A DNA stretch of 64,000 nt from an uncultured Chthonomonadaceae bacterium (GTDB taxonomy: Bacteria; Armatimonadota; Chthonomonadetes; Chthonomonadales; Chthonomonadaceae), in contig CAWFQB010000004.1 of assembly GCA_963817895.1 (NCBI GenBank), positions 320,001-384,000 of the forward strand, given 5' to 3'. Shown here piece by piece: positions 15,235 through 56,638 of the stretch. The position numbers were made by a program, and so were the translations under genes. The notes under the pieces were generated by a model. It ran no database searches and was not told where the DNA came from. It saw only the letters and a list, made by a program, of their open reading frames with translations. Positions within the stretch are counted from its first letter, which is position 1. Each line of letters opens with the position of its first letter.

Positions 15235-15348
15235 CAGGTTGTCAGGTTGTCAGGTTGTCAGGTTACAGCCGGATTACACATACCAGAATTGAGTGGTCTT
15301 TGTAACTAAATAACCTAACAACTAACAACCTAACAACCTAACAACCTA
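15235..15348. repeat. Intergenic 7/8-mer inverted tandem repeat (CAGGTTGT)n...(TAACAACC)n
   Basis: On the minus strand it starts on the TAG stop (15346-15348) of the GT2 gene. Confidence 0.88.
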
Positions 15349-21125: not shown

Positions 21126-23546
21126 TCAGCGTTTCCAGACATCGTAAGCGCCGCAGCGGTGATCGAACGTGTAGCGCAGGCGGACTGTTTTTCGCGCCGC
21201 CGCGTAAACGTCCGCTGTTTTCAGAGGATACCAGGTTTCAAAGGACTTCCAGGGTTCTTCCGAGGGCAGGAAAACGTAATCCACGGGTTTGGCTGCCAGC
21301 GTTTCCAGGACGCGATTAAGCTGCTTTCTGCTGATAAGACTGGGCAGCATGGGAGCGTAGCGATACCATAGCGGCGCTCCGGTCGCCAGGTAAAGCGAAG
21401 TGTCGTCATTGGAAATAATAGCGACAGTACGGTGTTCCGAGAGTATTTCCTTCACTTCCTTTGCCACTACAGTGTACTGTCCGGCGGCAAGCGCATCCGC
21501 CGCCGTCAGGCGTATGTCGGGCATATTCGGGTACAGGGCGAGCGTGTGCGGATCGTAAGGGCGCAGGAACCGCCGGAACAGATTGGGATAGTTACACGCG
21601 CAGGCGTTGGACAGGTAAAGCGGAACAAATACTGCCGCCATTAAAGGGATCGCGGTCTTATCTGAAATTGCAAATCCCACTTTTCGTTGCTTCGGATTGC
21701 GCGCCGACAGGAGCATCTTCTGCGCAATGGCGGCAAACCGCTGTAAGAATACTGTGAGAATAGTGACAAATCCTAACGCGGCGACATACAAATTCACCGG
21801 ATGGGAGCGGCCCATAAAGTGCAGCAGGGAGCAGGTTCCGTACAAAGCGACACAGACAAGCGCCAGGTCTTCCCGGCAGGATGCGGCCTCGTCGGGGCGT
21901 GGCTTCAAATCCCCATTCGCGCCCGGATTTAAGTCCTGATCGGGACGCGGCTTCAGTCCCGAAGCCGCAGGTGGAATCGGGTGAACCCGCCGCAAAAGAT
22001 GAAAAGCCAGCCCCGACAGCAGAACCGCGCAGAACACGAAACTGAGATTGATTCCGCTGACATGCTCGATCACGGGCATCATGCTGATACCGGCGGGATA
22101 CGCGGTAAAACACTCCATCCATCCTCGCCAGAACGCGCTGTGCCACATCGCGCCGCGACTGCCGACGGCCATACCCGACAGCAACACGCCCGCCGCCAAA
22201 AGCCAGGCAAAAGCGACCGTGTTCCACTTTGACCGGAAAGAACGCGCGGCGTTGAAGGCATACGATCCCGGCTGCCATAAGACGCAATACGCGCCGAATG
22301 TGAACGCGATGTAGATGCCTGTATCGGTTTCAAATAGCAGGGACAGCCCGGCCAGCGCGCCCGCAAGCAGCAGCCAGCCCATGCGCCGGGACTGCTGATG
22401 CAGCAGCAACAGCAGCAGAAACCAGACATCGAAGGGCGCGCGCAAAATCGTGTTGGAGGGCAGTTCCCACACGACCAGCCATTCTCCCGACCAGGCGAAC
22501 ATCTTTAGCCACACCAGGTAAACCACGCCCAGGGTAGACCAGTACGGGTTCAGCCGCAGGCGACGCAAAAAGAGATAAACGCCACAGAAATACAGGCAGG
22601 CGTACAACATTGCGGCCTGAATTAAATGTCCGTAGCCGAGCGCGTAGTACGGATTCAGCCGCGCGAACAGCAGGGGAAGCCCGATGCCGTACTGCGCGTA
22701 TATCTGCGAACATAACGCCCCGCCATGCAGGTAGCCGACCGCAGGCCCCATCACAAAATAGTCCCAGTGATGGAAATGCTCGTTGTGAAAAATATCGCCC
22801 GCCAGCCGTTCCGGGTGGGGAATGTAAATCAACGCGCACAGCAGCAGGGGCGTGAGAACATCCAGCAACCGTCCCCTGCGCGGATTGAGTATGGGAGGCG
22901 TGTCTCGCATTTCCGCCCGCGCGTAGCGTGAAAGCCCCACGCTTAAAATACGCTCCGGCAGGGGCAGGCGCAGGGGACGCTTTCGGCGCAGGCAGAACGT
23001 CAGTCCTGCCGCTTCCAGCGCGAGCGGGAACAGGAGCAGGGCGGCGGCGCGGCGCGGCGAGGGATGCGCGGTCAGAACCAGGCTCCGCGCCGTATAAAAG
23101 GCCGGAACGTACAATGCCATTCCCGCCAGGCTGAACGCCAGATACGCGCTGCACCGTGATAACGCGACGGCATGTTCGGGCGCGGGCGGCGCAGCGTCCG
23201 GGGCGATTGCGTCGGATATTCTCCGCCGGTCGAGCGCGGCCAGCAAAAAACAGAGCAGAACCGTGAGCGCGGAGCCGACGATATACAGGGGAATGTCGCG
23301 TTCCGGGCGATACAACTCCCCGCCCCATTGCGTGAACGCCGCGAGTTCCCCGACGGTAACGGGTTTCGGGCCAAAAAAAAGCAAACCCGCATACAGCAGT
23401 TGAAGGCCAATAAGGACGCCCATGCCGACCGCGCAGGCCCTGCTAAAAGCAAGCAGGGGAGCGGGCAGCGCGGGGGGCAAAGAAGCCTCCATCGTTGCCG
23501 CGCTATCCTGTGTTGCTGTATCGGATTCAGAATTGCCGATGGTCAT
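21126..23546 (-). CDS. Large polytopic membrane protein, probable GT-C-like glycosyltransferase (paralog 1)
   Basis: 806 aa, many TMs, HFHHWDYF, QYGIG, GRSHP; located in the glycan cluster. Function inferred. Confidence 0.65.
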   Translation of the reverse strand: MTIGNSESDTATQDSAATMEASLPPALPAPLLAFSRACAVGMGVLIGLQLLYAGLLFFGPKPVTVGELAAFTQWGGELYRPERDIPLYIVGSALTVLLCFLLAALDRRRISDAIAPDAAPPAPEHAVALSRCSAYLAFSLAGMALYVPAFYTARSLVLTAHPSPRRAAALLLFPLALEAAGLTFCLRRKRPLRLPLPERILSVGLSRYARAEMRDTPPILNPRRGRLLDVLTPLLLCALIYIPHPERLAGDIFHNEHFHHWDYFVMGPAVGYLHGGALCSQIYAQYGIGLPLLFARLNPYYALGYGHLIQAAMLYACLYFCGVYLFLRRLRLNPYWSTLGVVYLVWLKMFAWSGEWLVVWELPSNTILRAPFDVWFLLLLLLHQQSRRMGWLLLAGALAGLSLLFETDTGIYIAFTFGAYCVLWQPGSYAFNAARSFRSKWNTVAFAWLLAAGVLLSGMAVGSRGAMWHSAFWRGWMECFTAYPAGISMMPVIEHVSGINLSFVFCAVLLSGLAFHLLRRVHPIPPAASGLKPRPDQDLNPGANGDLKPRPDEAASCREDLALVCVALYGTCSLLHFMGRSHPVNLYVAALGFVTILTVFLQRFAAIAQKMLLSARNPKQRKVGFAISDKTAIPLMAAVFVPLYLSNACACNYPNLFRRFLRPYDPHTLALYPNMPDIRLTAADALAAGQYTVVAKEVKEILSEHRTVAIISNDDTSLYLATGAPLWYRYAPMLPSLISRKQLNRVLETLAAKPVDYVFLPSEEPWKSFETWYPLKTADVYAAARKTVRLRYTFDHRCGAYDVWKR

Positions 23547-23579
23547 AATTGAGCCTGCGCGCGTTTCAAAAGGCGGCTC

Positions 23580-26025
23580 CTAACGCTTCCACACTTCGTA
23601 AATGCCCGCTGTATGATCGAACGTGTAGTGCCGCGCGGTGAACTGCCGCAGCTCGCGCCATACATCCGTTGTATACAGGGCGAGAGGATGCCAGGCGACA
23701 AAAGTTGTGGACGGCGTGGCGGCCTCGATACAAACATAGTCCACACGGTCGGCCAGCAGCGCGGACTCGGCGCGCGTCAACTGCGCTTTGGTCATCAGGT
23801 TCGGGTACAGCGGCGAGTAGCGAAACCAGGGCGTGGCCCCGGAAGCCAGGTACAGCCAGGTTTCGTCATTGGCGAGAATGGCGACTTTTTTGCCCTGTGA
23901 TTCCCATTGCCGCGCTTCCTCAATGACAGGCGCGTACTGCTGAAGTTTGGGCAGAACTGAGCGCGGCAGTGTGACGCCGCTGCCAGGATACAGCGTTATG
24001 GCAGTGGTGTCGACATGCCCCACAAAGCGGGGCCACATCGCCACATGCGGGTCCCCTTTGCGTCCGCTGTCGTCTATGTACAGGCTGATTTCACGCGGCG
24101 GGTCCGGCTTCAGCAGCAGGCGGATGCAGTTGGGATAGGCGCGAACGTGCGGCTCATGCCACCAGGTAAACAGCCCGAACAGGCAGCACGCTCCCCAACC
24201 AATCCGCGTGATTTTAATTCCGGCGAAGTATTCCTGTCCCCCGCGCAGGGCGTATTGCGTGAGGGTATGCAGGCCCGTGACGCCGAGAAGCAGAAAGCCC
24301 AAAAAGCCGACATGCAGATTGGTGGGGTGCGAACGCCCCATAAAGTGCAGCATGGAACAGGTTCCATACAGGGCCACGCACAACAGCGCCAGATGCGGAC
24401 GGAACGCCGAACTCTCTTCCCCCTCATCCGTTGAAATCTCTTCCGCGCTGTCGGCTGAAATAGTTTTCTCATCCTGCCGCTCATGCAATCGGTGAAAATA
24501 GTAGCACAGGGCGAACAGATACACCCCGACCAGAATCATGCCGTAAAACATACCACTCATGTACTGCGCGACGGGAACCATACTCAGCCCGTTGGGATAC
24601 GCGGTGAAACATTCGATCCAGCCGCGCCAGAACGCCGCCTGACCTATCGTGCCGCGACTGGCAATCGCCATGCCGCTCAGAAACATGCCCGAAAACAGCA
24701 GCCACGCGCCTCCAACCATTGCCATTCGTCCGGCAAAGGAACCCGCATGGGCTTCACGCCTAACGCCGCGCAGGTAGAAGACGCTGTAAACGACAAAGGT
24801 AAAGGTGATGTAAACGCCCGTATCGGTTTCAAACAGCAGCGACAATCCGGCCAACGCGCCCGCAAACAGCAGCCAGCCCATGCGCCGGGATTGCTGATGC
24901 AGCAGCAGGACAAGCAGAAACCAGATGTCGAACGGGCCGCGCAAAACCGTGTTCGAGGGCAACTGGTAGGGGGGAAACCATACCGTTGTCCAGTTGAAAA
25001 GTTTGTAAAAGGCAAAGATAAACGCGCCAAGCGCGGCCCATCGCGGACTGCGCAACAGCAGGCGCAGGAACAGATACACGCCGCACAGATAAAAACAGGT
25101 GTAGATGTTGGTGAACTGAAAGATGTGGCCGTAGCTCAAACGATAGATCGGATTCAGCAGGGCGAACAGCAGGGGGAAGCCGATACCGTACTGGCTGTAT
25201 ACCTGCGTGTTGAGCGCCTGCCCGTGAATATAGCCGAGCGCGGGCGCGGTGACAAAATAGTCCCAGTGGTGAAAATGCTCGGATTGAAACACGAACCCGG
25301 CCATGATGTCCGCGCGCGGGCTGTAAAAAAACAGCCAGATTAGAAACAGAAAACCCGCGTCGCGCCAGTTCCAGGCCGTTCCCGCAGCAGGCGAATCGCC
25401 GGTATTTGAGCAGGGACGATTCTCTTCGCCTTTGCGAATCAGGGTTTCCAGCATCCGCCGGACACGCGCTAAAAATCCCGATTCCATTCCATTGCGGCCC
25501 AACAGCCAGAGGAAGCAGGCGATTTCCACCCACACGGGCAGCGTCATGACCAATTCGCCCGCAACCCAGTGCGGTCTGAGCATCCGCGCCAGCCGTTTGG
25601 CCGTGAAAAACCAGAGCGGATTGACAAGGGTTGCCGTCAGCGCAAGGGTCAGGTTCGCGGCGATATTGCCCACCGTAAACCGATATTTGTTTTCCGGGGA
25701 TAGGGACGCATAGCGTCGGTTCCACAGGAGCATCATCGCGTAACAGGCGGCAAAAGTCAGCCCGCAAAAGACGATGTACAGCGGAATGTCGCGCTCAGGA
25801 TGGTAATTCTCCTGTCCCCATGCGGTAAAGATAGCCACATCGGCGGGTTTGGGTTGTTTGAAGCCCAGGCAGAAACAGCGCGGAAAACAGCAGATGGACG
25901 CCGAAGAGAACGCCCGTCCAGACAACCGCAACGGTACGAAACCGCGCCAGTTGCGGGGACAGCGTGGTGTTTACTGAAGGCGCGTCGCTTCCGGCGGCGG
26001 ATTCATGGGAAAGCCTGCTCATCAT
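23580..26025 (-). CDS. Large polytopic membrane protein, probable GT-C-like glycosyltransferase (paralog 2), frameshift near 25865
   Basis: Shares PERDIPLYI, EHFHHWDYFV, LHQQSRRMGWLL, LLFETDTG and LHFMGRSHP with paralog 1; N-terminus in ORF 25795..26025. Confidence 0.65.
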
Positions 26026-31945: not shown

Positions 31946-32031
31946 GCGCGTTGATAAAGGGTTGTGGATGAAGTTCATAACTTCTTCTCCCATAACAGGA
32001 TGGGAGGAGGGGAACTTTTGAGAATTATTTT

Positions 32032-32825: not shown

Positions 32826-33491
32826 ATGATAAATGTTATGACCAATCCTATTCTCATTTCTCTGCAAGTCGGTACGCCGCGCAAACTGGATTTTCACGGC
32901 AAAGCGTGGGAAAGCGCGATTTTCAAAGCGCCGGTTGATGTTCGCGTACCCTTAGCGCGTACCAATCTGGACGGCGACCGGCAATACAACCTCAAGTTTC
33001 ATGGTGGGCCGGACAAAGCCGTGTGCTGCTTCTCGTCGGAACACTATCCCTACTGGCAAACTGAGTTCGGCATGGGCGATACGTTCACCTATGGCGCGTT
33101 CGGGGAGAACTTCACAGTTTCGGGACTGCCGGAAACGGAAGCATGTATCGGCGACGTATACGCGGTTGGCACGGCAAAAGTACAGGTCAGCCAGCCGCGC
33201 CAACCGTGCATCAATGTGGCCCGCAAGTGGGATCGCAGAGACATGCCCGAACGCATGATGGAGTTGGGACATACGGGCTACTATCTGCGAGTCACCCAAA
33301 CCGGCGAAGTGGGCGCGGGCGATGAACTGCGCCTGCTGGAACGCCCCTGTCCCGGTATTACAGTTCATCTGCTTAACCGCGCCATGTATCAGGACGAAAG
33401 TACGCGGGAACAGGACGAGTATCTGGCGCGCCTGCCCCTGCTCGCGGCCAGCGGCAGGCGCATTTTCCAGCGACGATTAAATAAGGAGTGA
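32826..33491 (+). CDS. MOSC domain protein (YiiM-like)
   Basis: SAIFK, LDGDRQ, HGGPDKAV, FGENFTV, SQPRQPC, TGYYLRV. Confidence 0.9.
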   Translation: MINVMTNPILISLQVGTPRKLDFHGKAWESAIFKAPVDVRVPLARTNLDGDRQYNLKFHGGPDKAVCCFSSEHYPYWQTEFGMGDTFTYGAFGENFTVSGLPETEACIGDVYAVGTAKVQVSQPRQPCINVARKWDRRDMPERMMELGHTGYYLRVTQTGEVGAGDELRLLERPCPGITVHLLNRAMYQDESTREQDEYLARLPLLAASGRRIFQRRLNKE

Positions 33492-34206
33492 ACCACGAGG
33501 AAGACCGGGGAACACGGGGAGGAGAGGGGAAGAAAAGGAGGGGCGGACAATGTTGTATACGCTGATTGCGGGTTTTGCTGTTGTGATGTCGCTGCTTGTT
33601 ATCATAGTGCAAAAACGCGAGGTCGAGGCGCGAAAAAAGGCTCTGTCGCAAACCACAGCGAACGATGGGGCAATACCAACAACCCAATCCTTTCCTGTAC
33701 CCCCACAGGAGATTGTCGCGAGTGATGGCCTGAGCCGTGTTCCCGCTTATGTGCATCGGCTTATGCAGTCGCAAAAAACGGCGACCGTGTTGATGATTTC
33801 CGCGCTGGATGGGCAGGAATTTATGAGCATTTTGCGCATGAACAGCGGATTTATACAATTCCACTTTCTTGCCAACTGGCCTGAAACATCGGACAGGCAT
33901 CAAAGAGCGCGGGACTTTTTTACCCGGCTAAACATTACGTCGGAGGAGTCGCAGGCGAATGGTTCGCGTATTTTCACATTTCCCGAAACCGGCAAGGAAG
34001 CGGATATTGCGTTCATGGTGAAAACCACGCTGATACAGGTTATGGATGTGAAGCAAAACGCGGGACTGAAGTTTACTTATGAAGAGCGCGATTTATAAAT
34101 TCTGTTAATTTTGTTTATCCTCTTATTTGCTCTTCTTTATTGTCTTTTTTCGTGTGTTTCGCGTATTTCGCGGTTCCCCTCTCCTCCCCGTGTTCCCCGT
34201 GGTTTA
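33489..34206. repeat. Nonamer-based inverted repeats (CACGGGGAA) bracketing an orphan gene
   Basis: Perfect 26-bp IR at 33506-33531 and 34174-34199, with outer AACCACG/CGTGGTT. Confidence 0.88.
33550..34098 (+). CDS. Hypothetical protein with N-terminal TM anchor
   Basis: AGGAGG RBS, 182 aa, one N-terminal hydrophobic helix; no family recognised. Confidence 0.7.
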   Translation: MLYTLIAGFAVVMSLLVIIVQKREVEARKKALSQTTANDGAIPTTQSFPVPPQEIVASDGLSRVPAYVHRLMQSQKTATVLMISALDGQEFMSILRMNSGFIQFHFLANWPETSDRHQRARDFFTRLNITSEESQANGSRIFTFPETGKEADIAFMVKTTLIQVMDVKQNAGLKFTYEERDL

Positions 34207-34298
34207 GCTGTTTTCCGGTTTTGTGATGCAGAAGTGAGTGGTTGTACGTATGTAGACAAAAAGGGAGTTCTCCCTGCCGCTAAAGGAGCGCGTTCCGC

Positions 34299-37218
34299 AT
34301 GGCCGAGCAAGCCGAAATCTCCGATCTGGATACCCCTGTACCATCTAATACTCCGCCTCCCACCATTGCCCAAACGGGAAAAAAACTGGTGCTGGTGGAT
34401 GCGTACGCGCTGCTGTTTCGCGCGTTTTTCTCCGGGCGCTATCTGTCTACAACTGACAACCGGCCAACGGGCGCGTTGTTCGGCTTTACCAACATGATAC
34501 TGTCCATTCTCAACAACGAGAAGCCGGACGCCATTGTGGTCTGTTGGGACGCGCCGCACCGGACGCACCGCAGCGTGGCCTTTGAAGAGTACAAAGCGCA
34601 TCGCCCGCCCGTAGACCCGCAACTATCCGCGCAGCAGCCGGTTGCCCGTGAAATCGTGGCCGCGTTCGGCATACAATCGGCGGAAATGGCCGGGTATGAG
34701 GCCGACGACCTGATTGGGACGCTGGCGCGACAGGGCGTTCAGGACGGCTACCATGTCATTGTGCTGACCGGCGATTCGGATACGCTGCAACTGGTCAACG
34801 ACCATGTTCATGTGCAGATTACGCAGCGCGGCGTGTCGGAAGTGAAGGTTTACGACGAGGCCGCCGTGCGGGAGCGGTACGGCATCGGGCCGGAGTGTAT
34901 CGCGGATTTCAAAGCGCTCACGGGCGACACCAGCGACAACATTCCGGGCGTACCCGGCATTGGCGACAAAACCGCGTCCGCCCTGCTGCAAAAGTTCGGT
35001 TCGCTGGAAAAACTGCTGCAAGTGGCGGAAGCCGGGGGCGAGGGCATCGCGCCGCCCAAAGCCAAAGCCGCGCTGGAAGCCAATGTAGAGCAGGCGCGGT
35101 TCTCGAAAAAACTGGCAACCATTGTCTGCGACGCGCCGATGGAATTCGCCATCGAACCCTACGCGCCAACCGAAGCCAACTGGCAGGACGCGCGGCAGAA
35201 GTTTCACGAACTGGAATTCAAGTCGCTGTTAGGCCGCCTGCCCGCGCCGAGCAAAACGGGAGCGGGAACAGCGGAGGATGCGGCGGAAGAGCGGCGCGTT
35301 CCCGAAGCCACGTTCAGCGCGGTTGGCATTGCCATTCATTCGCTGGAAGAGTTGGCGGACGCCCTTGCCGCCGTCCAGAAAAGCAAAACGGCTGGTATCC
35401 GCTTTGAAACCGATGGCGAACTGCCCATGCTCGCTACCCTGACCGGGTTGGCCTTTGCCCCTTCCAGAGAGGTTAGTTATTACGTCGCTATACGTGATGC
35501 CGCGCCCGCCGCAACGCCTGCAATCGCCGCGATTTCAACCGCCAATGCGCAAACCGGGTTGTTCGATGAAGACACCGTAGAGGAACAGGTAGCAAGTAAA
35601 AAGGCAAAAGGCAAAGGGAAAAAGCAGGAAGCGCAAAATCCAATAGATGAGAATAGATTTGCGGTCAGCATAGAAGATTTACAACCCCTGTTTGAAGACG
35701 CCGCAATCAATAAAACCGGTTACAACGTCAAACCGCTGGAAATCATTCTGGAACGGGCGGGCGTGAAGGTTGCGCCGTTCACCTTTGATGTGCTGATTGC
35801 CGCGTATCTGCTGGAAGCGGGGCGCTCCTCTTACCCCCTCCTCGATCTGGCGGAAACGCATCTCGACGCGGTTGTGGAAGCCGATGACGCCTATGTGGAG
35901 GGCGCGATGCTGATGCAGGAGTCCGCGCTGCTTGTGGCACTTGTGCCGCCTCTGCGCGAAGCCCTTGCCGCCGTGAAAATGACAGACATCATGGACACGA
36001 TGGAAATGCCGCTCGTGCCTGTGCTGTGCAAAATGGAGCAGGCGGGACTTGGCGTGGACGTGCCATATCTCAGCACACTTGGCGAACGCATGGGCCGACA
36101 GATGGACGCGCTTGCCGAAGAGATTTACACTCTTGCGGACGAGCGGTTCAACATCGGTTCCATCAAAAAACTACAGGAGATTCTGTTCGACAAACTGCAA
36201 TTGCCATCCGGCAAAAAGACCAAGACCGGGTATTCCACAGGCGCGGACGTGCTGGAAGCGCTGGCAGTGGAACACCCCATCGCCCGCAAAATCATTGACT
36301 GGCGCGAAATCGCCAAGCTGAAATCCACGTATGCCGACGCGCTGATTCGCCTTATCAATCCCGAAACCGGGCGCGTCCATACCAGCCTGAACCAGACGGT
36401 TGCAAGCACGGGACGCTTGAGTTCGTCCGACCCGAACCTGCAAAACATCCCTATTCGCAGCGAAATCGGGCGCGAAATCCGGCAGCGCGTTTATCGCGCC
36501 CAAAGGCAAAATGCTGCTGTCGTGCGATTATTCGCAGGTGGAACTGCGGCTGCTTGCCCATGTCACCGGCGACCCGACATTGACGCAGGCGTTTCTCGCG
36601 GATGAGGACATTCACAAAGCCACTGCCGCGCAGGTCTTTGAGGTTCCTCTCGAAGAGGTCACATCCGATCAGCGGCGGCAGGCGAAAACCATCAATTTCG
36701 CCGTGATTTACGGGCAGTCCGGCTTCGCGCTTGCGGCCATGCTGGGCGTCGGCACGGGCGTCGCGACCACATGGATCAAGGAATACTTCGAGCGGCTGCC
36801 CGGAGTTAAGAAATACGTAGACGATACCACCGCGCTCGCCCACAAGCAAAAGTACGTGCAAACCCTGCTTGGCAGGCGGCGTTACGTGCCGGAACTCGAC
36901 AGCGGCAATGCGCAGGTGCGGCAGGCGGCGGAACGCGCAGCCGTCAACATGCCCATTCAGGGCACGGCTGCCGACATCATTAAACTCGCCATGATCCACG
37001 TCAAGAAGTACCTTGACGAAACCTGTCACGACGGCTGTACCCTGCTGCTTCAGGTGCATGACGAACTGCTGTTCGAGGTGGATGCCGACATGGTGCAGAC
37101 CATCACGCCCGAAATCAAGCGTATTCTGGAATCCGCCTTTCCGCTCAACGTTCCCCTCCGCGCCGACGCCAAGTACGGGCAAACGTGGGCGGAAATGTCG
37201 CCCGTGCAAACGAAATAA
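34299..37218 (+). CDS. polA: DNA polymerase I, frameshift near 36485
   Basis: 5'-3' exonuclease motifs (EADDLIGT, GDTSDNIPGVPGIG), TGRLSSSDPNLQNIP, motif A DYSQVELR, motif B AKTINFAVIYG, motif C QVHDEL. Confidence 0.95.
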
Positions 37219-37321
37219 ACCACGGGGAACACGGGGGACACGGGGAGAAGAGTGGAAATGAGAGAAAAACTGCTTTCTCTTCCCTTCTCCTCCCCGTGTC
37301 CCCCGTGTTCCCCGTGGTTTA
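37216..37321. repeat. Cargo-free nonamer inverted-repeat hairpin between convergent genes
   Basis: Perfect 32-bp IR TAAACCACGGGGAACACGGGGGACACGGGGAG (37216-37247 and 37290-37321); each end contains the TAA stop of a flanking gene. Confidence 0.92.
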
Positions 37322-38158
37322 GCCTTCAACGTAGCGTTTCAGCAGGGCAATGGTTTTACGTGCGCCGCCAATTTCGTCGCCGTCACGGGGTACGGATTCG
37401 ATGCCCCAGCAGCCTTTGTAGTTGGCGTCCAGCAGGATGTGAATGGCGGAAACAGCATCTTCATCTGATATTTCATTGCCGTCCGCGCCGAATTCAAAGG
37501 TTTTGAGATGCGTCGCCGTCGCGTAGGGCGCGCATATTCGCCTGCCCTCGTCACGCAGTTCCCGTTTCCAGTTGTGCATGTCCAGCAGCAAGCCCAAACT
37601 ATCAATGCCCTCCAGAAGTTTAATAACGTTGTCGGGTATTACCGTTGGCCCCCAGTGATTTTCCACGACAATCTCAATTCCAAGCGGCGCGGCGCGGTCA
37701 ATCAGGTCGCGGTAGCCTTCGCGTATAATGGCAAATACGGGATCGGGCATATCTTCCGGCCCGCCCGCGTCAATACGTATCTGGCTTGCCCCTAATTGAT
37801 GCGCGATGTCGAGCCACTTGTAGGCGCGTTCGCGGTTCGCCTGCCGCGCTTCTTTGGTCGGCTCGTAGATGTGCGCCCCGTCAACGGCAATGCAGCCGAA
37901 CGGCAATCCAGCCTTATCCGCCGCCTGCCGAACGCGGGAAATGTAGTCCTCGTCCGCAGCCGTTAAATGCTGAAATTGACCGGGACTGCGCCCGACGTGA
38001 GAAGCGTCGTCACTGCTTTTCAAGTCGGCCAGATGCGCGTTCCAGGGATCGAGTTGGGTGCAGCCGAGCGCTTTGCAGTCCTGAATGTACTGAAAAATGT
38101 CCTGCTTACCGTCCGCGAGCAAGCGATGAAAACTAAATGAGCAGATTCCGATTTGCAT
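37319..38158 (-). CDS. Sugar phosphate isomerase/epimerase (xylose-isomerase-like TIM barrel)
   Basis: VVENHWG, LLLDMHN, HLKT, WGIE metal-binding pattern. Confidence 0.85.
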   Translation of the reverse strand: MQIGICSFSFHRLLADGKQDIFQYIQDCKALGCTQLDPWNAHLADLKSSDDASHVGRSPGQFQHLTAADEDYISRVRQAADKAGLPFGCIAVDGAHIYEPTKEARQANRERAYKWLDIAHQLGASQIRIDAGGPEDMPDPVFAIIREGYRDLIDRAAPLGIEIVVENHWGPTVIPDNVIKLLEGIDSLGLLLDMHNWKRELRDEGRRICAPYATATHLKTFEFGADGNEISDEDAVSAIHILLDANYKGCWGIESVPRDGDEIGGARKTIALLKRYVEG

Positions 38159-38190
38159 AGATAACCTCACATGACGAGACGAAAAGAATT

Positions 38191-38221
38191 TAGCCGCGAA
38201 TATACGCGAATACACACGAAT
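38191..38221. repeat. 10-mer tandem (CGCGAATATA-like) x3
   Basis: ccgcgaatatacgcgaatacacacgaat; its reverse complement resembles the 9-mer array ttcgtgtgtttcgcgtatttcgcgg at 34149-34173. Confidence 0.65.
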
Positions 38222-38331
38222 GTTAATACGAGAGGAGAGAGCGATTTTCCTGTTACGATTGGAATTCCGGCAGGGAACAGGCGGCCAGGGCGCGAATTTA
38301 AGCGTATTACATTGTGAGGAGCAAACCAAAT

Positions 38332-39174
38332 ATGACGACACATACCGCATCGCGAGTTGGCGTTTCCACCTATAGTTTGAGCCGCGCATTGGGCGCGACG
38401 TACCAGGACACGCCCGCCAATCCTGAGCGAACGCGCCGGGAACCTGCCACGCCGGGAAACCTGACGCTGCTGGAATTGCCTGCCCGAATCGCGGACGCGG
38501 GCATCCATTCGCTGGAGATTTCGCACCCGCATCTGCCGAACCGCGACGCCTCATATCTGAACGAGCTGCGAAGCGCGTTGGACGGGGCGGGCGTCGAGTT
38601 GTTCTCCGTGCTGATTGAAACCGGCGACATTACCCATCCCGAACATGCCCGCCGGGACTTGGATTGGATAGCGGGCTGGATGGAAACCGCTTCGCAACTG
38701 GGCGCGGAACGGGCGCGCGTAATTGCGGGACATGCCGCGTATACTCCCGAAACCTTGCGGCGCAGTCGGTGTGGATTGGAAGAACTAGCGCAGCGCGGCA
38801 ACGATTTGGGCGTTCGGGTGACGACGGAAAACTGGTTCGACCTGCTGGCGACGCCGGATGCGGTTCACGCGCTCATGGGCAGTCTGGAGGGGCGTATCGG
38901 CTTCAATCTGGATTTCGGCAACTGGGGCGGCGCGAACAAGTATGAGAATCTGGCCTCCATTTTCTCGTATGCCGAATCCTGCCACGCCAAATGCGATTTC
39001 GTCGCGCCTTATGAAGCGAATAAAGACGATTTTAACCGCTGTCTGGAACTCAGTCGCGCCGCCAATTTCGCCGGACCCTATACGCTGATTTACAACGATG
39101 GCGCGGGCAGCGACGAGTGGCGCGGCCTTGCGGCAGAACGAGAATTGGTTATGCCCTACTTGAAAGTGGAGTAG
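38332..39174 (+). CDS. Sugar phosphate isomerase/epimerase (TIM barrel)
   Basis: TTENW, LDFGNW, CHAK motifs; GAGGAG RBS. Confidence 0.8.
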   Translation: MTTHTASRVGVSTYSLSRALGATYQDTPANPERTRREPATPGNLTLLELPARIADAGIHSLEISHPHLPNRDASYLNELRSALDGAGVELFSVLIETGDITHPEHARRDLDWIAGWMETASQLGAERARVIAGHAAYTPETLRRSRCGLEELAQRGNDLGVRVTTENWFDLLATPDAVHALMGSLEGRIGFNLDFGNWGGANKYENLASIFSYAESCHAKCDFVAPYEANKDDFNRCLELSRAANFAGPYTLIYNDGAGSDEWRGLAAERELVMPYLKVE

Positions 39175-42134: not shown

Positions 42135-42351
42135 CAACCTGAACGAGTTCTCCATGCCAACCAGTCTCTACAAGTATCGCAAACAACAGGTACGCGCCCG
42201 GTCACGTGACATGCGCTGCGGTTTAGGCTACCAACGCTTTGACGCTTTGTGGCGCTTTGCTTCTATCCCCAAACACAAGAAACGGGCGGAACACGCGGCA
42301 ACTGCTTGCTCGCGCCAAAACGCTGATGCAAACCGATCCGGGCGCATATTA

Positions 42352-43300
42352 ACCCAAGTTGCTACCTAACTTTTTAGCCAGTGATGGCAAAGGCCAGCAC
42401 GGTGAGGAACACCTTCAACTCAAAGCCGCGTGGTGTCACGGCATGAATGCACTTGGCAAACCGCAAGTTGATCTGACTAAAGGTGGTTTCCACTCGTTTG
42501 CGCGTGTATTGGCTGAGGTACGTGACCCAACCCGGCACTTGACGGGTGCTGTTCTTTTTGCGCGCCGCAATCAACTCGATCTTGGCGTGTTGGCCTAAGA
42601 AGTCCTCGACCGTATAATCGGTGTAAGCGGCATCGGCATGTACTTCGGCATCTGGGGGCAAGTCCAGCGGCAAGCTCCGAAACGCATTGATGTCGGCGAC
42701 GCTGCCGGGTTCTATCAGGATTTCGACGGGCTGACCATTGGCCGCAATCAGCAAATGCACCTTCACGCCGTAGAAATAGCGCTTTTTGCTGGCGATAACG
42801 CCGCGAAACGCCGCGTCCGGGTACAATTTGCACCGCCAGATGCGAATGTTGTCACACACCGGTACCGGGCAACTGTCCACGACATACTCGCCCGACGGGT
42901 TGGTGTGGATCGCACACAGCGCCAGAACGTGCCAGAGCGCTTGCCAGAGCGTGTCGGGCAAAGCGTGCAGGCGACGATTGAGCCGGCTTTTGGAGAGCAT
43001 TGTGGGAATGTAGCCGTGTTCTTTGAGGAAAATGCGGCTTAGTTCCTGATTGCCGACGAAGAACGTGGCGGCCACCAGCACGGTGGTCATCACTTCGGCA
43101 TCGGTCATGCGGGCTTGCGGGTCTTCTTTATGCCCATAAGCTAAAAGAAAGTCGGCACAAACACAGTAAATTGTGATAATCTTTTCTTGCATAACGGAAC
43201 TCCTGTCTAGTGTGGGTTGGCACTTTCACTATACCAGAGACCGTTATGCGCTTCACAAAATGCTCGGCTGCTTGCTACACGCTTAGGTAGCAACTTGGGT
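42352..43300 (-). mobile_element. IS982-family insertion sequence (second, distinct element)
   Basis: Perfect 18-bp IRs ACCCAAGTTGCTACCTAA (42352-42369 and 43283-43300), 5-bp target duplication TATTA. Confidence 0.93.
42374..43192 (-). CDS. IS982-family transposase
   Basis: MTDAEVMT, SKSRLNRRLH, VDSCPVPVC, FYGVKVH, ADAAY, RKRVETTFSQI. Confidence 0.92.
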   Translation of the reverse strand: MQEKIITIYCVCADFLLAYGHKEDPQARMTDAEVMTTVLVAATFFVGNQELSRIFLKEHGYIPTMLSKSRLNRRLHALPDTLWQALWHVLALCAIHTNPSGEYVVDSCPVPVCDNIRIWRCKLYPDAAFRGVIASKKRYFYGVKVHLLIAANGQPVEILIEPGSVADINAFRSLPLDLPPDAEVHADAAYTDYTVEDFLGQHAKIELIAARKKNSTRQVPGWVTYLSQYTRKRVETTFSQINLRFAKCIHAVTPRGFELKVFLTVLAFAITG

Positions 43301-43355
43301 TATTACCAATCTCCGGCAGGACGCGCGTGGGGAGAAGAATGAGTACAAGACGGAC

Positions 43356-44699: not shown

Positions 44700-44766
44700 T
44701 AGCCCTCAACCCGGGCGTCCACCTGGGGACATGCCCCTTCTCCCAAAAAGCCTGGGAGAAGGGGAG
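44700..44766. repeat. REP-like CCCTCAACCC...GGGAGAAGGGG element with a short internal insertion
   Basis: tagccctcaaccc + ~20 nt + gccccttctcccaaaaagcctgggagaaggggag. Confidence 0.85.
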
Positions 44767-44867
44767 TCATTTGTTTTCATGCGGGACAAACAGAAGCGGC
44801 AGACTGAGAATGTCAGACTACCGCCTTTATTTCATGGCGCTGAATTATTCAACGCCTGCAAACAGCG

Positions 44868-45454: not shown

Positions 45455-48088
45455 ATGAGTGTACAGGAACATAACAGCGGAAGAAACGGCAGGGGCAGCA
45501 GGCGACAGCATTGCGCCGCGCGACACATACAAATTGTATTAACGCTCGGCCTCGCCATGCTATCCCTTGCCGCCGCGTGTCAGCAGGCGCGTCAGGGAAC
45601 AGTAGGGAGCCAGGGAGATAGGGAGACAGGGACACACGGAGACAAGGAGCCTCAATCAAAAATCGAAAATCGAAAATCGGCAATCCCTTCATCCCTCATC
45701 CCTCATCCCTCATCCCTGAGTGATATTCGTCCGCTTCTGGAAGCGAAATGTCTGGGCTGCCATGGGGTGGGGAACCGATTGGCGGGACTGGATTTGCGAA
45801 CCCGCGAGTCCGCGCTGAAAGGTGGGACGCGGGGCGCGGCGTTTGTGCCGGGTAAATCCGATAAAAGCCTGCTGATACAACTGGTCAATGGCAATCGCGC
45901 GCCCCTGATGCCGCCAACCGGCAAACTGCCTGCCGGAGAAATCGCCCTGCTCAAACATTGGATTGACAGCGGCGCGACATGGCCTTCGGGCGCGATCACC
46001 AAAGCGCAGCCGCAAGTGTGGTGGTCGTTTCGCGCGCCTAAAACGCCGCCCATTCCCAATATCCATTCCGCGTGGATACGCAACCCCATTGACGCTTTTG
46101 TACTTGCCAAACTTCAGGAAAACGGCTTGAAGCCGTCCCCGCCCGCGCCCCGTCGCGTTCTCATTCGCCGCGCCTATTTCGACCTGATTGGCCTGCCGCC
46201 CACGCCCGCCGAAACGGAAGCGTTTCTTAACGATAAATCTCCGACTGCTTGGGAAAAGGTTGTGGATGGCCTGCTGGCTTCACCGCGCTATGGCGAACGG
46301 TGGGGACGGCACTGGCTGGATTTGGCGCGTTATGCCGACAGCGGCGGGTTTGAGGGCGACAAAGACCGGACGCTCGCGTGGCGGTATCGCGACTACGTGA
46401 TAGACGCCTTCAATCAGGACAAGCCGTACAACGAATTTGTGCGCGAACAGATTGCGGGCGACGAACTCAAGCCCAATGACCCCAACGCCCTCATCGCCAC
46501 CGGCTATCTCGCCTGCGGGCCGCAGGACATTGTGGAAAACAACGCCCGAACCCGCGCCAACGAACTCGATGACCTTGTGGCGACAACGGGTTCAGTCATG
46601 CTCGGCCTGACTGTGGGTTGCGCCCGCTGCCACGACCACAAATACGATCCGGTCAAGCAGACGGATTATTACCGGCTGTCCGCCATTTTCGCCCCGACCG
46701 AACGGCGCGAAGTGGAGTGCGCGAGTGTGGAAGAGCGCCGCGTGGTTACGGAACATAACGCGCCCCTGGAAAAACAACTGGCTGCGTTGCGTCCACAGGC
46801 GGACGCTTTGCGCAAGCAGGGCGAAGAAGCGGCGAAAAAGGCGGGACAGGCAAAGCCCGATGACGCGCAAATACTCGCCGCGCTGCCGCAAACACAGCGC
46901 GGGCAACTTCAAGCCTTGCAACAGCAAATCAAGGGACTGGAAGCGCAGCGCATGGACGTTCCCCACGCGCAAGTCGTTATGGACAAAGGCCGCGACTTTC
47001 CCGCCGCGCATTTATTATTGCGCGGCGACGCTTATCATCCCGGCGATGAGGTGAAACCCGGCTTCGTGTGTTCCCTTCCGGATGGCGCGACCGACATCGC
47101 TCCCGCCCCCGCGAACGCGACCACAACCGGCAGGCGTACCGCGCTTGCCGACTGGCTGACAAGCGCGCAAAATCCGCTCACCGCCCGCGTGTGGGTCAAC
47201 CGCGTCTGGCGGCAGCACTTCGGCAGAGGCTTGGTCAACACCCCAAGCAACTTCGGACTGAATGGCGAACTCCCTTCCCACCCGGAACTGCTGGACTGGC
47301 TGGCAAGCCGCTTTGCTGCAAAGGATGAAGGCGGAAGGATGAAGGATGAAGGGAAGATACGAGATACAAGATACGAGATACGAGAAGGAGAGAATTCATC
47401 CTCCATCCTTCATCCTTCATCCTTTGCATGGCATCTCAAACCTCTGCACCGCCTGATGCTGCTTTCGTCCACGTATCAGCAGGCGTCGGATATGCGCGAG
47501 GAGGGGATGAAAGCCGACGCGCAGGATAAATACTACTGGCGGATGCCTGTGCGCCGGTTGGAAGCCGAACCTATCCGCGACAGTATTCTGAAGCTGGCCG
47601 GAAGTTTGAATTTGCAGATGGGCGGCCCGCCCGTGTATCCGCCCATTGACCCGTCCCTGCGCGCCGACACGTTTCAAGGCCCCAACTGGCATGATGGCGA
47701 GGATGGGCCTTCCACATGGCGGCGCAGCGTGTACGTCAAGGTGAAACGCTCGACTCTCCTGCCCGAACTGGAAGTGTTCGACTGCCCGGAAATCACGTAC
47801 ACCGTCGCGCAGCGCAATGTCACGACCACGCCCCTGCAAGCCCTGACCCTGCTCAACGATCCGCTGATTCTGCGGCAGGCGGGATTGTTCGCGCAGCGGC
47901 TCCAAAAAGAGTATCCCGACAATCCGCGTCAACAGGTAGAACGCGCCTACCAATTAGCCTTTAGCCGACTGCCCTCCGCGCAGGAATTAAGTCTAAGTCT
48001 AGCGTTTATGCAAAAGCGCGACGCGTCCGCCCTGCCCGACTTCTGCCACGCCCTGTTCAACCTGAACGAGTTCGTCTACGTGCCATAA
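45455..48088 (+). CDS. Planctomycete cytochrome c / DUF1549 / DUF1553 (PSD1) protein with two repeat-derived inserts
   Basis: CLGCH, NPIDAFV, YGERWGRHWLDLARYAD, GCARCHDHKYDP, SHPELLDWLA, RRLEAEPIRD, TPLQALTLLN, NEFVY. Confidence 0.92.
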   Translation: MSVQEHNSGRNGRGSRRQHCAARHIQIVLTLGLAMLSLAAACQQARQGTVGSQGDRETGTHGDKEPQSKIENRKSAIPSSLIPHPSSLSDIRPLLEAKCLGCHGVGNRLAGLDLRTRESALKGGTRGAAFVPGKSDKSLLIQLVNGNRAPLMPPTGKLPAGEIALLKHWIDSGATWPSGAITKAQPQVWWSFRAPKTPPIPNIHSAWIRNPIDAFVLAKLQENGLKPSPPAPRRVLIRRAYFDLIGLPPTPAETEAFLNDKSPTAWEKVVDGLLASPRYGERWGRHWLDLARYADSGGFEGDKDRTLAWRYRDYVIDAFNQDKPYNEFVREQIAGDELKPNDPNALIATGYLACGPQDIVENNARTRANELDDLVATTGSVMLGLTVGCARCHDHKYDPVKQTDYYRLSAIFAPTERREVECASVEERRVVTEHNAPLEKQLAALRPQADALRKQGEEAAKKAGQAKPDDAQILAALPQTQRGQLQALQQQIKGLEAQRMDVPHAQVVMDKGRDFPAAHLLLRGDAYHPGDEVKPGFVCSLPDGATDIAPAPANATTTGRRTALADWLTSAQNPLTARVWVNRVWRQHFGRGLVNTPSNFGLNGELPSHPELLDWLASRFAAKDEGGRMKDEGKIRDTRYEIREGENSSSILHPSSFAWHLKPLHRLMLLSSTYQQASDMREEGMKADAQDKYYWRMPVRRLEAEPIRDSILKLAGSLNLQMGGPPVYPPIDPSLRADTFQGPNWHDGEDGPSTWRRSVYVKVKRSTLLPELEVFDCPEITYTVAQRNVTTTPLQALTLLNDPLILRQAGLFAQRLQKEYPDNPRQQVERAYQLAFSRLPSAQELSLSLAFMQKRDASALPDFCHALFNLNEFVYVP
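45593..45717. repeat. In-frame compound repeat (AGGGAGAC)n-(AAAATCG)n-(CATCCCT)x4
   Basis: Encodes QGTVGSQGDRETGTHGDKEPQSKIENRKSAIPSSLIPHPSSL just before the cytochrome c domain. Confidence 0.88.
47321..47424. repeat. In-frame heptamer hairpin (AAGGATG)n-(GATACGA)x4-(CATCCTT)n
   Basis: Encodes KDEGGRMKDEGKIRDTRYEIREGENSSSILHPSSF; the core is nearly identical to 1168-1237. Confidence 0.92.
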
Positions 48089-48997: not shown

Positions 48998-50482
48998 ATG
49001 GCGGAACATGACGATCATAGTGGGCCGGACACCATTGCGCGGCGGGACTTTCTGGCGCGCGCGGGCGGCGGCATCGGCGGACTGGCGCTGGCGTTTCTGC
49101 TCGGCGAAGAGGGCGCTTCAGGAGAAGGGGTCAGGAGTCAGGCGGCAGGGGACAGGGGAAAACCACTGCTCGACACCCAAAACCCTTTGTTTCCGAAAAA
49201 GCCGCATTTCGCGCCCAAAGTGAAGCGGGTGATTTCCTTATTTATGTTCGGAGGAATCAGCCATATTGATACGTTCGACCCGAAAAGCGAACTTATCAAG
49301 CAGGATGGCGCTTCGGTTGCGGGGCGTCCCGGCTTTGATACGGGCGGGCGGAGCGCGCCCGGGAAACTGATGAAAAGCCCCTGGCAGTTCAAGCCCTATG
49401 GACAGTGCGGAATGCCCGTGTCCGACCTGTTGCCCCACATCGGAAGCTGCGCCGACGATATTGCCCTGATTCGTTCCATGAAGTCCGACAGCAATAACCA
49501 CGTTCCGGCTGTGTACCACATGCTGACCGGCAGTATTTTGAGTGGCAGGCCGGGATTGGGCAACTGGATTACCTATGGATTGGGAACCGAAAACCAGAAC
49601 CTGCCCGCGTTTGTCGTAATGACCGATCCGCGCGCTCTTGTCGGCGGCGGCGCGGGCAACTGGAGCGCGGGCTTTCTTCCCTCCAACTATCAGGGCGTAC
49701 AGTTCCGCAGTCAGGGTTTGCCAGTTCTCAACCTGAAGCCGCCCGCAGGCGTGACGCCCGAAAAGCAGCGCGAACATCTGGATTTCATCGGGAAACTCAA
49801 TGAGGAGTTTCTGCGCGGACGTCCGGGCGAGCAGGAATTGGCGGCGCGAATACGGGCGTATGAACTGGCGTATCGAATGCAGTCGGAAGCGACTGAAGCC
49901 GTAGATTTGAGCCGCGAGTCCGAAGCCACGAAAACCCTGTACGGTCTGGACAAACCCCAAACCGAAATCGTCGGGCGGCAATGCCTGCTGGCGCGTCGGC
50001 TGGTGGAGCGCGGCGTTCGGTTCGTGCAGATCTATTCGGGCGGCGGCGTGTTCGACCAGAGTTGGGACGCGCATAACGCGATGGTTCCCAACCACACGAT
50101 GCGGGCGGGCGAAATTGACCTGCCGATAGCCGGATTGATTCGCGACCTGAAACAGCGCGGTCTATTTGAAGATACCCTGCTCGTGTTCCATACCGAGTTT
50201 GGCCGGATGCCGTTTACCGAGGGCAGCGTGGGCCGTGACCACAACCCCAAAGCGTTTTCCGTGTGGCTGGCGGGCGGCGGCATTAAAGGCGGGACCATCT
50301 ATGGCGCGTCCGATGAAATCGGCTATGTCGCGTCGGAAAACGTCCAGACGGTGTACGACCTGAACGCCACCATTCTGCACCTGCTCGGTCTGGAACACAC
50401 CCATCTGACCTATCAATACGGTGGCCGCAACATGCGCCTGACCGACGTAAGCGGCGAAGTCATTCATCCTATATTGGCGTAA
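48998..50482 (+). CDS. DUF1501 family protein (Tat-like signal)
   Basis: RRDFL, GGISHIDTFDPK, ARRLVERGVRFVQ, WDAH, EFGRMP, GRDHNP. Confidence 0.92.
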   Translation: MAEHDDHSGPDTIARRDFLARAGGGIGGLALAFLLGEEGASGEGVRSQAAGDRGKPLLDTQNPLFPKKPHFAPKVKRVISLFMFGGISHIDTFDPKSELIKQDGASVAGRPGFDTGGRSAPGKLMKSPWQFKPYGQCGMPVSDLLPHIGSCADDIALIRSMKSDSNNHVPAVYHMLTGSILSGRPGLGNWITYGLGTENQNLPAFVVMTDPRALVGGGAGNWSAGFLPSNYQGVQFRSQGLPVLNLKPPAGVTPEKQREHLDFIGKLNEEFLRGRPGEQELAARIRAYELAYRMQSEATEAVDLSRESEATKTLYGLDKPQTEIVGRQCLLARRLVERGVRFVQIYSGGGVFDQSWDAHNAMVPNHTMRAGEIDLPIAGLIRDLKQRGLFEDTLLVFHTEFGRMPFTEGSVGRDHNPKAFSVWLAGGGIKGGTIYGASDEIGYVASENVQTVYDLNATILHLLGLEHTHLTYQYGGRNMRLTDVSGEVIHPILA

Positions 50483-50495
50483 AGGAGTTTAGCGC

Positions 50496-53299: not shown

Positions 53300-53418
53300 A
53301 GCCTATCCCAACAGGCGATTGCATTTGCGTCCGAAGGACGCTTGGCCGCAGGCCACTCAGACGGGTACGTTCTTTGTACCCGGCCTATTGGAATAGGCAC
53401 TAAACTAAAGGTGAACGT

Positions 53419-54780: not shown

Positions 54781-54814
54781 AATAAAGCGGCGGAAAAACA
54801 GTAAGAAAACAACC

Positions 54815-55843: not shown

Positions 55844-55929
55844 ACTGTAAAAGAGAGAGGATTACGCGATTTACCCATCTACTCGCCACATGTGTTTTGG
55901 AAATTTATAGTAAAATACATAACTTGGCA

Positions 55930-56616: not shown

Positions 56617-56638
56617 TTATTTTTCTTTCCGTCCGGGT

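What the first reader, a model, noticed from the sequence alone, without database searches (positions are those of the whole stretch)
33489..37321. Filled and empty versions of one nonamer-IR cassette on either side of polA
Seen: an orphan 182-aa gene is enclosed by a perfect 26-bp IR (33506-33531 / 34174-34199) with AACCACG ends. The same arms occur at 37216-37321 as a perfect 32-bp IR around only 42 nt. A second nonamer array (34149-34173) is nested inside the right arm of the filled copy. Inference: the arms act as gene-capture or exchange sites, like a MITE or integron-type cassette without a linked recombinase.
Basis: partly seen in the sequence, partly recalled or inferred. Interest (0 to 1): 0.75.

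Follow-up and report, generated by a model that had tools for sequence, protein, structure and literature searches.

The report
Nonamer hairpins bracketing a stationary gene
The repeats on both sides of polA belong to a genome-wide family of 9-base-repeat DNA hairpins that is likely spread by a small uncharacterised nuclease (GxxExxY) encoded elsewhere in the genome, while the small gene they enclose here sits at the same place in relatives that lack the right-hand repeat, so it is likely not captured cargo.

Summary
The repeats are real: 26/26 and 32/32 inverted matches. The left arm of the "filled" copy is degenerate at its outer end.

They belong to a genome-wide family of 61 arms and 18 inward pairs: 16 short hairpins, one pair around a GxxExxY (PF13366) nuclease gene, and this one. 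Across the order, 25 of 31 GxxExxY genes are bracketed by inverted repeats, against 1 of 600 control genes. Eight nucleases carrying this arm type form one clade.

Gene capture fails its own test. The 182-aa gene lies between MOSC and polA in congener G002 and a closer strain, both without the right arm. Its dS (0.86) matches its neighbours'. Arm-bearing junctions are not gene-turnover hotspots (11/39 vs 132/451, p=1.0).

Verdict: a gene-less REPIN/MITE-like hairpin plus a likely mosaic bracket around a vertically inherited gene. This scan noted the nonamer-GxxExxY pairing before on other genomes; my paper searches found no description of it. The polA split is likely an assembly error.

The parts
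32826..33491 (+). MOSC/YiiM-like gene; its TGA stop overlaps the first base of the left arm
   Evidence: Pfam PF03473 + PF03475; 84% identical and syntenic in G002
33491..33534 (+). Left nonamer arm (type A, three units, the outer two degenerate); the older half of the bracket
   Evidence: Intact arm at the same place in runs X3/X4 (loose ends); only a 9-nt remnant plus a purine run in G002
33550..34098 (+). 182-aa lineage-restricted gene: hydrophobic N-terminal helix (predicted membrane anchor) plus an alpha/beta domain; vertically inherited at this site
   Evidence: No Pfam or NCBIfam hit; 7 homologues including itself; GC 0.50 vs 0.56-0.60 for neighbours; dS 0.86, dN 0.38 vs G002; model pLDDT 76; no Foldseek hit at E<=1e-3, best Z 7.6
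34100..34122 (-). Degenerate right arm of the ACAGGATTA nonamer type, just after the orphan's stop codon
   Evidence: By eye, against the arms of the C1 GxxExxY cassette; not caught by the pattern scan
34148..34175 (-). Right arm of the CGCGAAATA/CACGAAA nonamer type, with no left partner here
   Evidence: the same nesting occurs in complete hairpins of G002
34174..34204 (-). Right type-A arm (two units), at the edge of the region upstream of polA; found only in this genome among those compared
   Evidence: Absent in G002; 34092-34200 is replaced by 991 other letters in X3 and X4
34299..37218 (+). polA (DNA polymerase I), split into two ORFs by one extra base near 36486, likely an assembly error
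   Evidence: Contigs of runs X1, X3 and X5 lack that base; 981-aa open frame in G002
37216..37321 (.). Complete gene-less type-A hairpin between the convergent stops of polA (TAA 37216-37218) and a xylose-isomerase-like gene; TA outside both arms
   Evidence: only its left arm is present in G002
38189..38221 (+). Solo arm of a fourth nonamer type (CGCGAATRA) upstream of the xylose-isomerase-like gene
   Evidence: the same type brackets the GxxExxY gene on contig C8

Best explanation
Both features are copies of a dispersed family of 9-base-repeat DNA hairpins that is likely spread in trans by a GxxExxY (PD-(D/E)XK) nuclease encoded between the same kind of arms on another contig, and the bracket around the 182-aa gene is likely a mosaic of two separate hairpin remnants rather than a gene-carrying cassette. 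Shown: the family is abundant and its arms often start on a stop codon; types nest inside each other; hairpins are present, absent or of another type at the same junction in a congener; the nuclease gene is bracketed by arms; and the 182-aa gene keeps its position in relatives that have only the left arm. Inferred: (1) the nuclease of the matching clade recognises the nonamer arms, probably as an extruded or single-stranded hairpin, and cuts there so that copies end up at new intergenic sites; (2) an arm sat behind MOSC, ahead of the orphan, before G000, X3/X4 and G002 split; (3) in the G000 line a nested hairpin just upstream of polA lost its left half together with about 1 kb of neighbouring DNA (a PEP-CTERM gene in G002), which left three right arms facing the old left arm; (4) the two arms may since have been made alike by pairing and gene conversion; (5) the hairpins are tolerated because they lie just outside coding sequence, where they would act as mRNA stem-loops.
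For: Family: 61 arms, 18 inward pairs, 16 of them 59-207 nt apart; 14 of 61 arms start within 3 nt of a called stop. Nuclease link: all 4 GxxExxY genes of the genome are bracketed by inverted nonamer arrays of 4 different types, one by these very arms. 25 of 31 GxxExxY loci of the order score as bracketed vs 1 of 600 control genes (2 of 33 loci dropped for short flanks). All 6 of 68 genomes with 23 or more arms carry GxxExxY, vs 36 of 68 overall (p=0.026, kin not independent). Eight nucleases flanked by this arm type, seven picked by arm and not by protein, form one clade at 100/99 support. Turnover without cargo: of 17 conserved junctions with a type-A arm, 4 have it in both genomes, 4 are empty in G000 and 9 hold another hairpin type or a remnant. 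Orphan stationary: syntenic in G002 and X3/X4 without the right arm; dS 0.86 vs 1.05 (MOSC) and 0.63 (polA C-terminal part). Brackets arise by chance: 9 ordinary genes lie between outward-facing arms. G001 has a different nonamer hairpin just upstream of polA.
Against: The two arms around the orphan are each other's best match in the genome, and the exact 26-mer occurs only in them. However, 10% of 1812 non-partner pairs share 26 or more nt, and the same 26-mer occurs in a G002 solo arm. Inward pairs of solo arms within 2.5 kb are expected 0.07 times by chance; 2 are seen, this one and the nuclease cassette. The layout arm-RBS-gene-stop-arm is that of the nuclease cassettes. A second type-A pair (C1:1337135-1338962) holds a PAS histidine kinase in G000 and a GH18 gene at the same site in G002. 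Mobility of the nuclease cassette itself is not shown: it is at the same site in G002. No target duplication could be read at the empty sites. No activity of any GxxExxY protein was tested. The order of events rests on two outgroups and parsimony, and the 991 letters of X3/X4 were not seen.
Confidence: 0.68

Rival explanations
1. Old capture, later decay. The orphan entered the loop of a complete hairpin behind MOSC, or replaced a GxxExxY gene there, before these lineages split. G002 and X3/X4 later lost the right arm when other DNA came in, and G000 kept the original bracket. Hairpin loops would be occasional landing sites for passenger genes.
For: Same layout as the nuclease cassettes; arms are mutual best matches; low GC of the orphan; different genes between the same arms at C1:1337135 in two congeners; a D-type pair encloses a 60-codon gene fragment and a C-type pair a DDE transposase; IS110 and Mutator transposases lie inside type-A pairs in metagenome loci.
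Against: Needs loss of the right arm in two separate lineages, one closer to G000 than the other. The inner right arms have no left partners. The 32% homologue in G019 has no arms. GH18 homologues in 5 of 5 other genomes examined are not bracketed by an arm pair. Arm-bearing junctions are no more often broken than others.
Confidence: 0.2
2. Active exchange site: paired arms are recombination sites through which genes are inserted, excised or swapped today, as with integron cassettes or TIME-type composite elements.
For: Filled and empty forms coexist; one site has different content in two congeners; several G002 arm sites lie at synteny breaks.
Against: Orphan is single-copy and vertical. No contig joins MOSC to polA across the orphan in the five runs laid (contigs drop rare variants). 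Breaks are not enriched at arms: 16 of 44 vs 372 of 691 overall, 11 of 39 vs 132 of 451 where both genes have orthologues. No integron integrase over cut-off. In 80 metagenome loci: 59 short pairs, 4 with GxxExxY, and 3 distinct others, two of them IS transposases.
Confidence: 0.05
3. Host-selected RNA elements with no mobiliser: the hairpins arise and change by slippage and arm-to-arm conversion and are kept as mRNA stabilisers, terminators or RNase III sites. The long-range stem around the orphan would be kept to process its mRNA.
For: Very stable predicted stem at the polA stop; arms start on stop codons; the two arms around the orphan pair in the predicted fold of 33489-34206; the nuclease cassette stays at one site in two congeners.
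Against: Patchy, all-or-none distribution: 6 of 68 genomes have 23-107 copies and 61 have none. Identical terminal motifs at unrelated sites, the tight nuclease link and the clade match are not explained. Relatives do without the right arm.
Confidence: 0.07

Closest known systems
REPIN-RAYT system (REP doublets plus REP-associated tyrosine transposase; PMC3337134, abstract and sections 3 and 7 read)
   Same: Two inverted arms and a spacer forming a hairpin, intergenic, many copies, singlets as likely decayed remnants, copy number differing among close relatives, and a low-copy partner gene flanked by the same repeats that stays in place.
   Different: Arms are tandem 9-mers without an internal palindrome; the partner is a PD-(D/E)XK protein (PF13366), not a Y1/HUH transposase; none of the 3 Y1_Tnp genes has an arm within 1.5 kb; several arm types nest.
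TIMEs and mobile insertion cassettes: non-autonomous IR elements that carry passenger DNA (PMC4133298, abstract read)
   Same: Gene-less IR element that coexists with longer forms bounded by the same ends.
   Different: TIMEs have 38-bp Tn3 IRs, make 5-6 bp target duplications and are moved by a Tn3 transposase. Here the ends are nonamer arrays, no duplication could be read, and the enclosed gene is vertical with one arm missing in relatives.
GxxExxY / PDDEXK_3 family (TIGR04256, PF13366; listed with function 'Unknown' in PMC3424549, one passage seen)
   Same: The gene inside the only complete coding type-A element of this genome is a full member.
   Different: That passage gives no function and no link to repeats; the gene is not in this window (it is on contig C6).
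Integron gene cassettes (attC/IntI; defining features recalled)
   Same: A single ORF with its RBS next to a palindromic site.
   Different: The arms are inverted around the gene rather than one attC per gene in tandem; no attC-type Rfam hit in 33300-38400; no IntI over cut-off.

Membership tests
REPIN-RAYT | Two repeats in inverted orientation with a spacer, forming a hairpin, dispersed in intergenic space | tested here: met
   16 short inward pairs among 61 arms; predicted fold z -14.7
REPIN-RAYT | Each arm is itself a short imperfect palindrome (REP) | tested here: not met
   The left arm alone does not fold (z 0.24); arms are purine-rich tandem 9-mers
REPIN-RAYT | Repeats flank a Y1 (RAYT) transposase gene | tested here: not met
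   No nonamer arm within 1.5 kb of the 3 PF01797 hits; the arms flank PF13366 genes instead
MITE / TIME-like non-autonomous element | Short gene-less element with terminal IRs, multicopy, present or absent at orthologous sites | tested here: met
   4 of 17 conserved type-A junctions are empty in G000, plus one more empty site (L054)
MITE / TIME-like non-autonomous element | Target-site duplication | tested here: inconclusive
   TA lies outside 35 of 61 arms and on both sides of 9 of 18 pairs, but the congener's intergenic DNA is too diverged to tell a duplication from a terminal motif
MITE / TIME-like non-autonomous element | Ends shared with an autonomous element encoding a known transposase | tested here: inconclusive
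   Ends are shared with a GxxExxY-coding element, whose product is not a known transposase; activity not testable here
Passenger-carrying cassette (for the 182-aa gene) | Gene plus both ends moves as one unit; an empty site exists in relatives | tested here: not met
   Gene syntenic without the right arm; dS like its neighbours'; no MOSC-polA junction in G001, G002, G017 or G021
Integron cassette | Integron integrase in the genome and attC sites | tested here: not met
   TIGR02249 best 114 bits vs cut-off 265 (genome 81% complete); Rfam gave only sub-threshold generic hairpin hits
GxxExxY-nonamer hairpin system (noted earlier in this scan; not found in print) | Inverted arrays of 2-3 nonamers starting AACCAC/ACCGC, with gene-less and GxxExxY-bearing copies in one genome | tested here: met
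GxxExxY-nonamer hairpin system (noted earlier in this scan; not found in print) | The nuclease binds or cuts its cognate arms and produces new copies | not testable with these tools
   Association and clade match only

The most novel reading that the evidence does not exclude
The nonamer arms and their clade-matched GxxExxY nucleases form an undescribed class of mobile DNA, a PD-(D/E)XK counterpart of REPIN-RAYT, whose arm pairs can also take up and move ordinary genes. The orphan would then be an old passenger that came to rest behind MOSC, and the kinase/GH18 swap at the C1 site a second case.
Probability: 0.15. Interest if true: 0.8.

Novelty: new variant of a known kind. Interest (0 to 1): 0.46.

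Why it matters
GxxExxY/PF13366 is a widespread family listed with unknown function. This genome gives a compact test set: four paralogues, each bracketed by its own nonamer type, dozens to hundreds of gene-less copies, and a protein clade that tracks arm type across families. If the nuclease spreads the hairpins, it is a REPIN-like replicator driven by a nuclease fold not known for that job, and possibly a very small (about 130 aa) repeat-specific cutter. The locus itself matters less: it mainly shows that a gene between two arms need not be cargo.

Tried and rejected
Orphan identity:
- No Pfam, NCBIfam or PDB sequence match.
- The Atlas gave only unnamed clusters at 0.87-0.90.
- Foldseek gave no hit at E<=1e-3. 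Weak rows for SycE/YbjN/ExsC-type chaperone folds (E 0.02-0.04) and YkuJ (Z 7.6, rmsd 2.3, 75 aligned) are in the range of common arrangements, so I claim no fold or function.
- The deep HMMER search of cluster representatives never ran, so distant relatives may be missed.
- The metagenome scan with the alignment found no relative.

Breakpoint-hotspot idea: suggested by single cases, rejected by the count on 861 junctions from 1.19 Mb of the 8 Mb of G002. Gene calls were home-made, and G000 is 81% complete with frameshifts, which inflates the 'absent' class. The both-orthologue subset avoids that and shows no difference.

Other ideas rejected: RAYT link and integron link. Rfam gave only microRNA-type hairpin hits below the gathering score.

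Expression and excision: no RNA holder was listed, so expression is untested. No excision joint was seen in contigs of 5 runs, which cannot show absence. The promoter/terminator scan found nothing above chance.

Rows to discount:
- One 'inward' bracket (C7:152766) is an artefact: its left 'arm' is half of a complete hairpin.
- The orphan is missing from the bracket list because its degenerate left arm fails that pattern.
- The loose seven-type census (464 hits, 366 loci) includes false positives.
- In the tree, 4 of the 12 rows auto-labelled A carry other arm types (three CACAGAG-type, one CACGGAT-type) and fall outside the clade; one row was dropped as short.

Literature: searches for GxxExxY, PF13366/PDDEXK_3/TIGR04256 and Armatimonadota repeats listed no paper describing the repeat link. 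The library lacks most subscription journals, and no supplements were read.
Full report
Observation. 33506-33531 and 34174-34199 are complementary at 26 of 26 positions; 37216-37247 and 37290-37321 at 32 of 32, with 42 nt between. The second stem extends to 49 bp at 88% and is predicted to fold at -87.1 kcal/mol, z -14.7. The 182-aa ORF (33550-34098) lies between a MOSC/YiiM gene and polA. The left arm begins on the MOSC stop but its two outer units are degenerate, so the perfect IR covers only the inner part (33 of 52 positions match over the full arms without gaps). Inside the right arm lie a second nonamer array and, by eye, a third degenerate one; neither has a left partner. polA is split by one extra base near 36486, which contigs of runs X1, X3 and X5 lack, so this is likely an assembly error. 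The host is a member of Chthonomonadaceae, going by the title of the congener locus L046.

A genome-wide family. The 19-mer occurs 26 times exactly and 61 times at up to 3 mismatches; the reversed pattern occurs 0 times. The arms form 18 inward pairs: 16 are 59-207 nt apart, one is 501 nt and one, this locus, 713 nt. Fourteen of 61 arms start within 3 nt of a called stop, and TA precedes 35 of 61. At least six other nonamer types exist and nest inside each other. I recalled that such repeats sit next to GxxExxY genes and tested it. The 501-nt pair encloses a full GxxExxY gene (TIGR04256, PF13366), and all 4 such genes in the genome are bracketed by inverted nonamer arrays, each of a different type.

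The link holds beyond this genome. 25 of 31 GxxExxY loci from the order have an inverted repeat around the gene, against 1 of 600 control genes (2 of 33 loci dropped for short flanks). The type-A arm occurs in 7 of 68 genomes of the order. The six with 23-107 copies all carry GxxExxY, as do 36 of 68 overall (p=0.026, kin not independent). In a tree of 39 proteins, eight nucleases flanked by this arm type, from two families and three metagenome contigs, form one clade at 100/99 support. Seven of them were picked by arm, not by protein. Linked inheritance alone could also give this pattern, so recognition is inferred, not shown. In 80 metagenome loci (of 128 or more matches) there are 59 short pairs, 4 GxxExxY pairs and 3 distinct other contents: an IS110 transposase, a Mutator transposase and a UbiD gene.

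Is the orphan cargo? Congener G002 has ABC permease, MOSC, orphan (52% aa), about 1.3 kb with a reverse PEP-CTERM gene, then polA. Only a 9-nt remnant of the left arm and no right arm are present, and after polA only the left arm of the 'empty' copy. A closer strain (runs X3 and X4, one study) has an intact left arm and the orphan, then 991 other letters in place of 34092-34200, then polA. Between G000 and G002 the orphan has dS 0.86 and dN 0.38, against dS 1.05 for MOSC and 0.63 for the C-terminal part of polA. It has therefore been at this site as long as its neighbours have diverged, under relaxed purifying selection. It is single-copy and found in 3 of 42 genomes of the family, G000 included. 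The distant homologue in G019 sits in another operon without arms. In G001, G017 and G021 MOSC has other neighbours, so no empty MOSC-polA site was found.

Are arms exchange hotspots in general? I compared 861 gene junctions from 1.19 Mb of G002 with G000. Junctions with arms were broken in 16 of 44 informative cases, those without in 372 of 691. Where both genes have orthologues the figures are 11 of 39 and 132 of 451 (p=1.0). The hairpins themselves do turn over: of 17 conserved junctions with a type-A arm, 4 have it in both genomes, 4 are empty in G000 and 9 hold another type or a remnant. Nine ordinary genes lie between outward-facing arms of neighbouring elements, so brackets arise by chance.

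The two arms around the orphan are mutual best matches, and the 26-mer is exact only there (4 sites at 1 mismatch, 10 at 2). Against this, 10% of non-partner pairs share 26 nt or more, and a G002 solo arm has the same 26-mer. Inward solo pairs are expected 0.07 times and seen twice, counting the nuclease cassette. A further, degenerate type-A pair at C1:1337135-1338962 holds a PAS histidine kinase in G000 and a GH18 gene at the orthologous site in G002. There each arm follows the stop of one of two convergent genes, and GH18 homologues in 5 other genomes are not bracketed, so ordinary gene turnover in a gap explains it too. A D-type pair holds a 60-codon fragment and a C-type pair a DDE transposase. 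Loops do take up DNA; nothing here shows that arms carry it onward.

Mechanism (confidence 0.68). The hairpins are likely non-autonomous replicators. The clade-matched GxxExxY protein would recognise the nonamer arms in hairpin form and cut, and copies would settle just behind stop codons, where they are tolerated as mRNA stem-loops. Repeated targeting and partial deletion would give nested and solo arms. At this locus an old arm behind MOSC was later faced by the right half of a nested hairpin upstream of polA, after about 1 kb including its left half was lost; G001 has another nonamer hairpin at that same spot. Pairing may since have made the arms alike. Distribution, association, turnover and the orphan's synteny are shown. 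Cutting, copying, the deletion and conversion are inferred. The nuclease cassette is at the same site in G002, so it behaves as a resident gene, as RAYTs are described to (search listing).

Comparison with known systems. It works like REPIN-RAYT (PMC3337134, abstract and sections 3 and 7 read) but fails membership: the arms are not palindromes, and no Y1 transposase is near. It resembles TIME-type elements (PMC4133298, abstract only), but no target duplication could be read and the passenger test fails. It is not an integron. PF13366 is listed with unknown function in PMC3424549 (one passage). Searches for GxxExxY, PF13366/PDDEXK_3/TIGR04256 and Armatimonadota repeats (listings only) showed no description of the repeat link; some searches were background searches. 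Supplements were not read. Earlier notes of this scan report the same pairing in several other genomes; I had reached the link and tested it here.

The orphan protein has a hydrophobic N-terminal helix and an alpha/beta domain (pLDDT 76), 7 homologues including itself, and no significant family or fold match. It is best read as a small, fast-evolving, predicted membrane-anchored protein of this lineage.

Verdict. Observation partly confirmed; interpretation partly supported. The system behind the repeats is a new variant of a known kind and directly testable. The filled copy is likely a mosaic. Interest 0.46.

Noticed in passing
window ~36486: polA is split into 768-aa and 235-aa ORFs by one extra base that relatives' contigs lack; likely an assembly error.
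   Followed up: yes
L258 (G000:C1:1337135-1338962) vs L077 (G002:C65:40713-41875): The same inward type-A arm pair between convergent GNAT and upstream genes holds a PAS histidine kinase plus a small ORF in one congener and a GH18 gene in the other: the best remaining candidate for a variable slot.
   Followed up: partly
L259 (G000:C1:869710-870076): Well-matched D-type arms enclose a 60-codon gene fragment with no Pfam hit.
   Followed up: partly
L260 (G000:C14:676199-677786): A 451-aa DDE transposase with its own short inverted ends sits inside a C-type nonamer hairpin.
   Followed up: partly
window 1163-1245, 3579-3706, 5160-5244, 7077-7144, 15236-15362, 47317-47428: Heptamer-repeat hairpin families (ACCTAAC/AACTAAC, GATACGA, TCATCCT) parallel the nonamer family; heptamer arms bracket a 132-aa Fic/Doc gene at G000:C1:577615.
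   Followed up: partly
window 10056-10319, 31981-32012, 44733-44777, 51810-51858: A third hairpin family (CCCTCAACCCCCAGCCCCTGCTCCC type). Arms of this or a similar type bracket a GNAT gene (C11:96447), and another palindromic family brackets a DUF559 gene (C1:437952).
   Followed up: partly
window 42347-43305: IS-like element: 35-nt inverted ends around a 272-aa transposase-like ORF, annotated by eye only.
   Followed up: no
window 37319-38161: The reverse xylose-isomerase-like gene between the polA hairpin and the D-type arm is absent at this site in G002, where the hairpin's right arm is missing too.
   Followed up: partly
L038 5726-5850 (G001, upstream of polA): A different nonamer hairpin (CGCGGATT type) occupies the spot where G000 has its right-arm stack, which suggests a repeatedly used site.
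   Followed up: partly
window 21700-25830 and 49565-62349: A tandem gene duplication with about 2.5-kb period, and a long inverted paralogous block about 11-12 kb apart.
   Followed up: no
window 8302-8550: An 18-nt tandem repeat, probably coding, on the minus strand.
   Followed up: no
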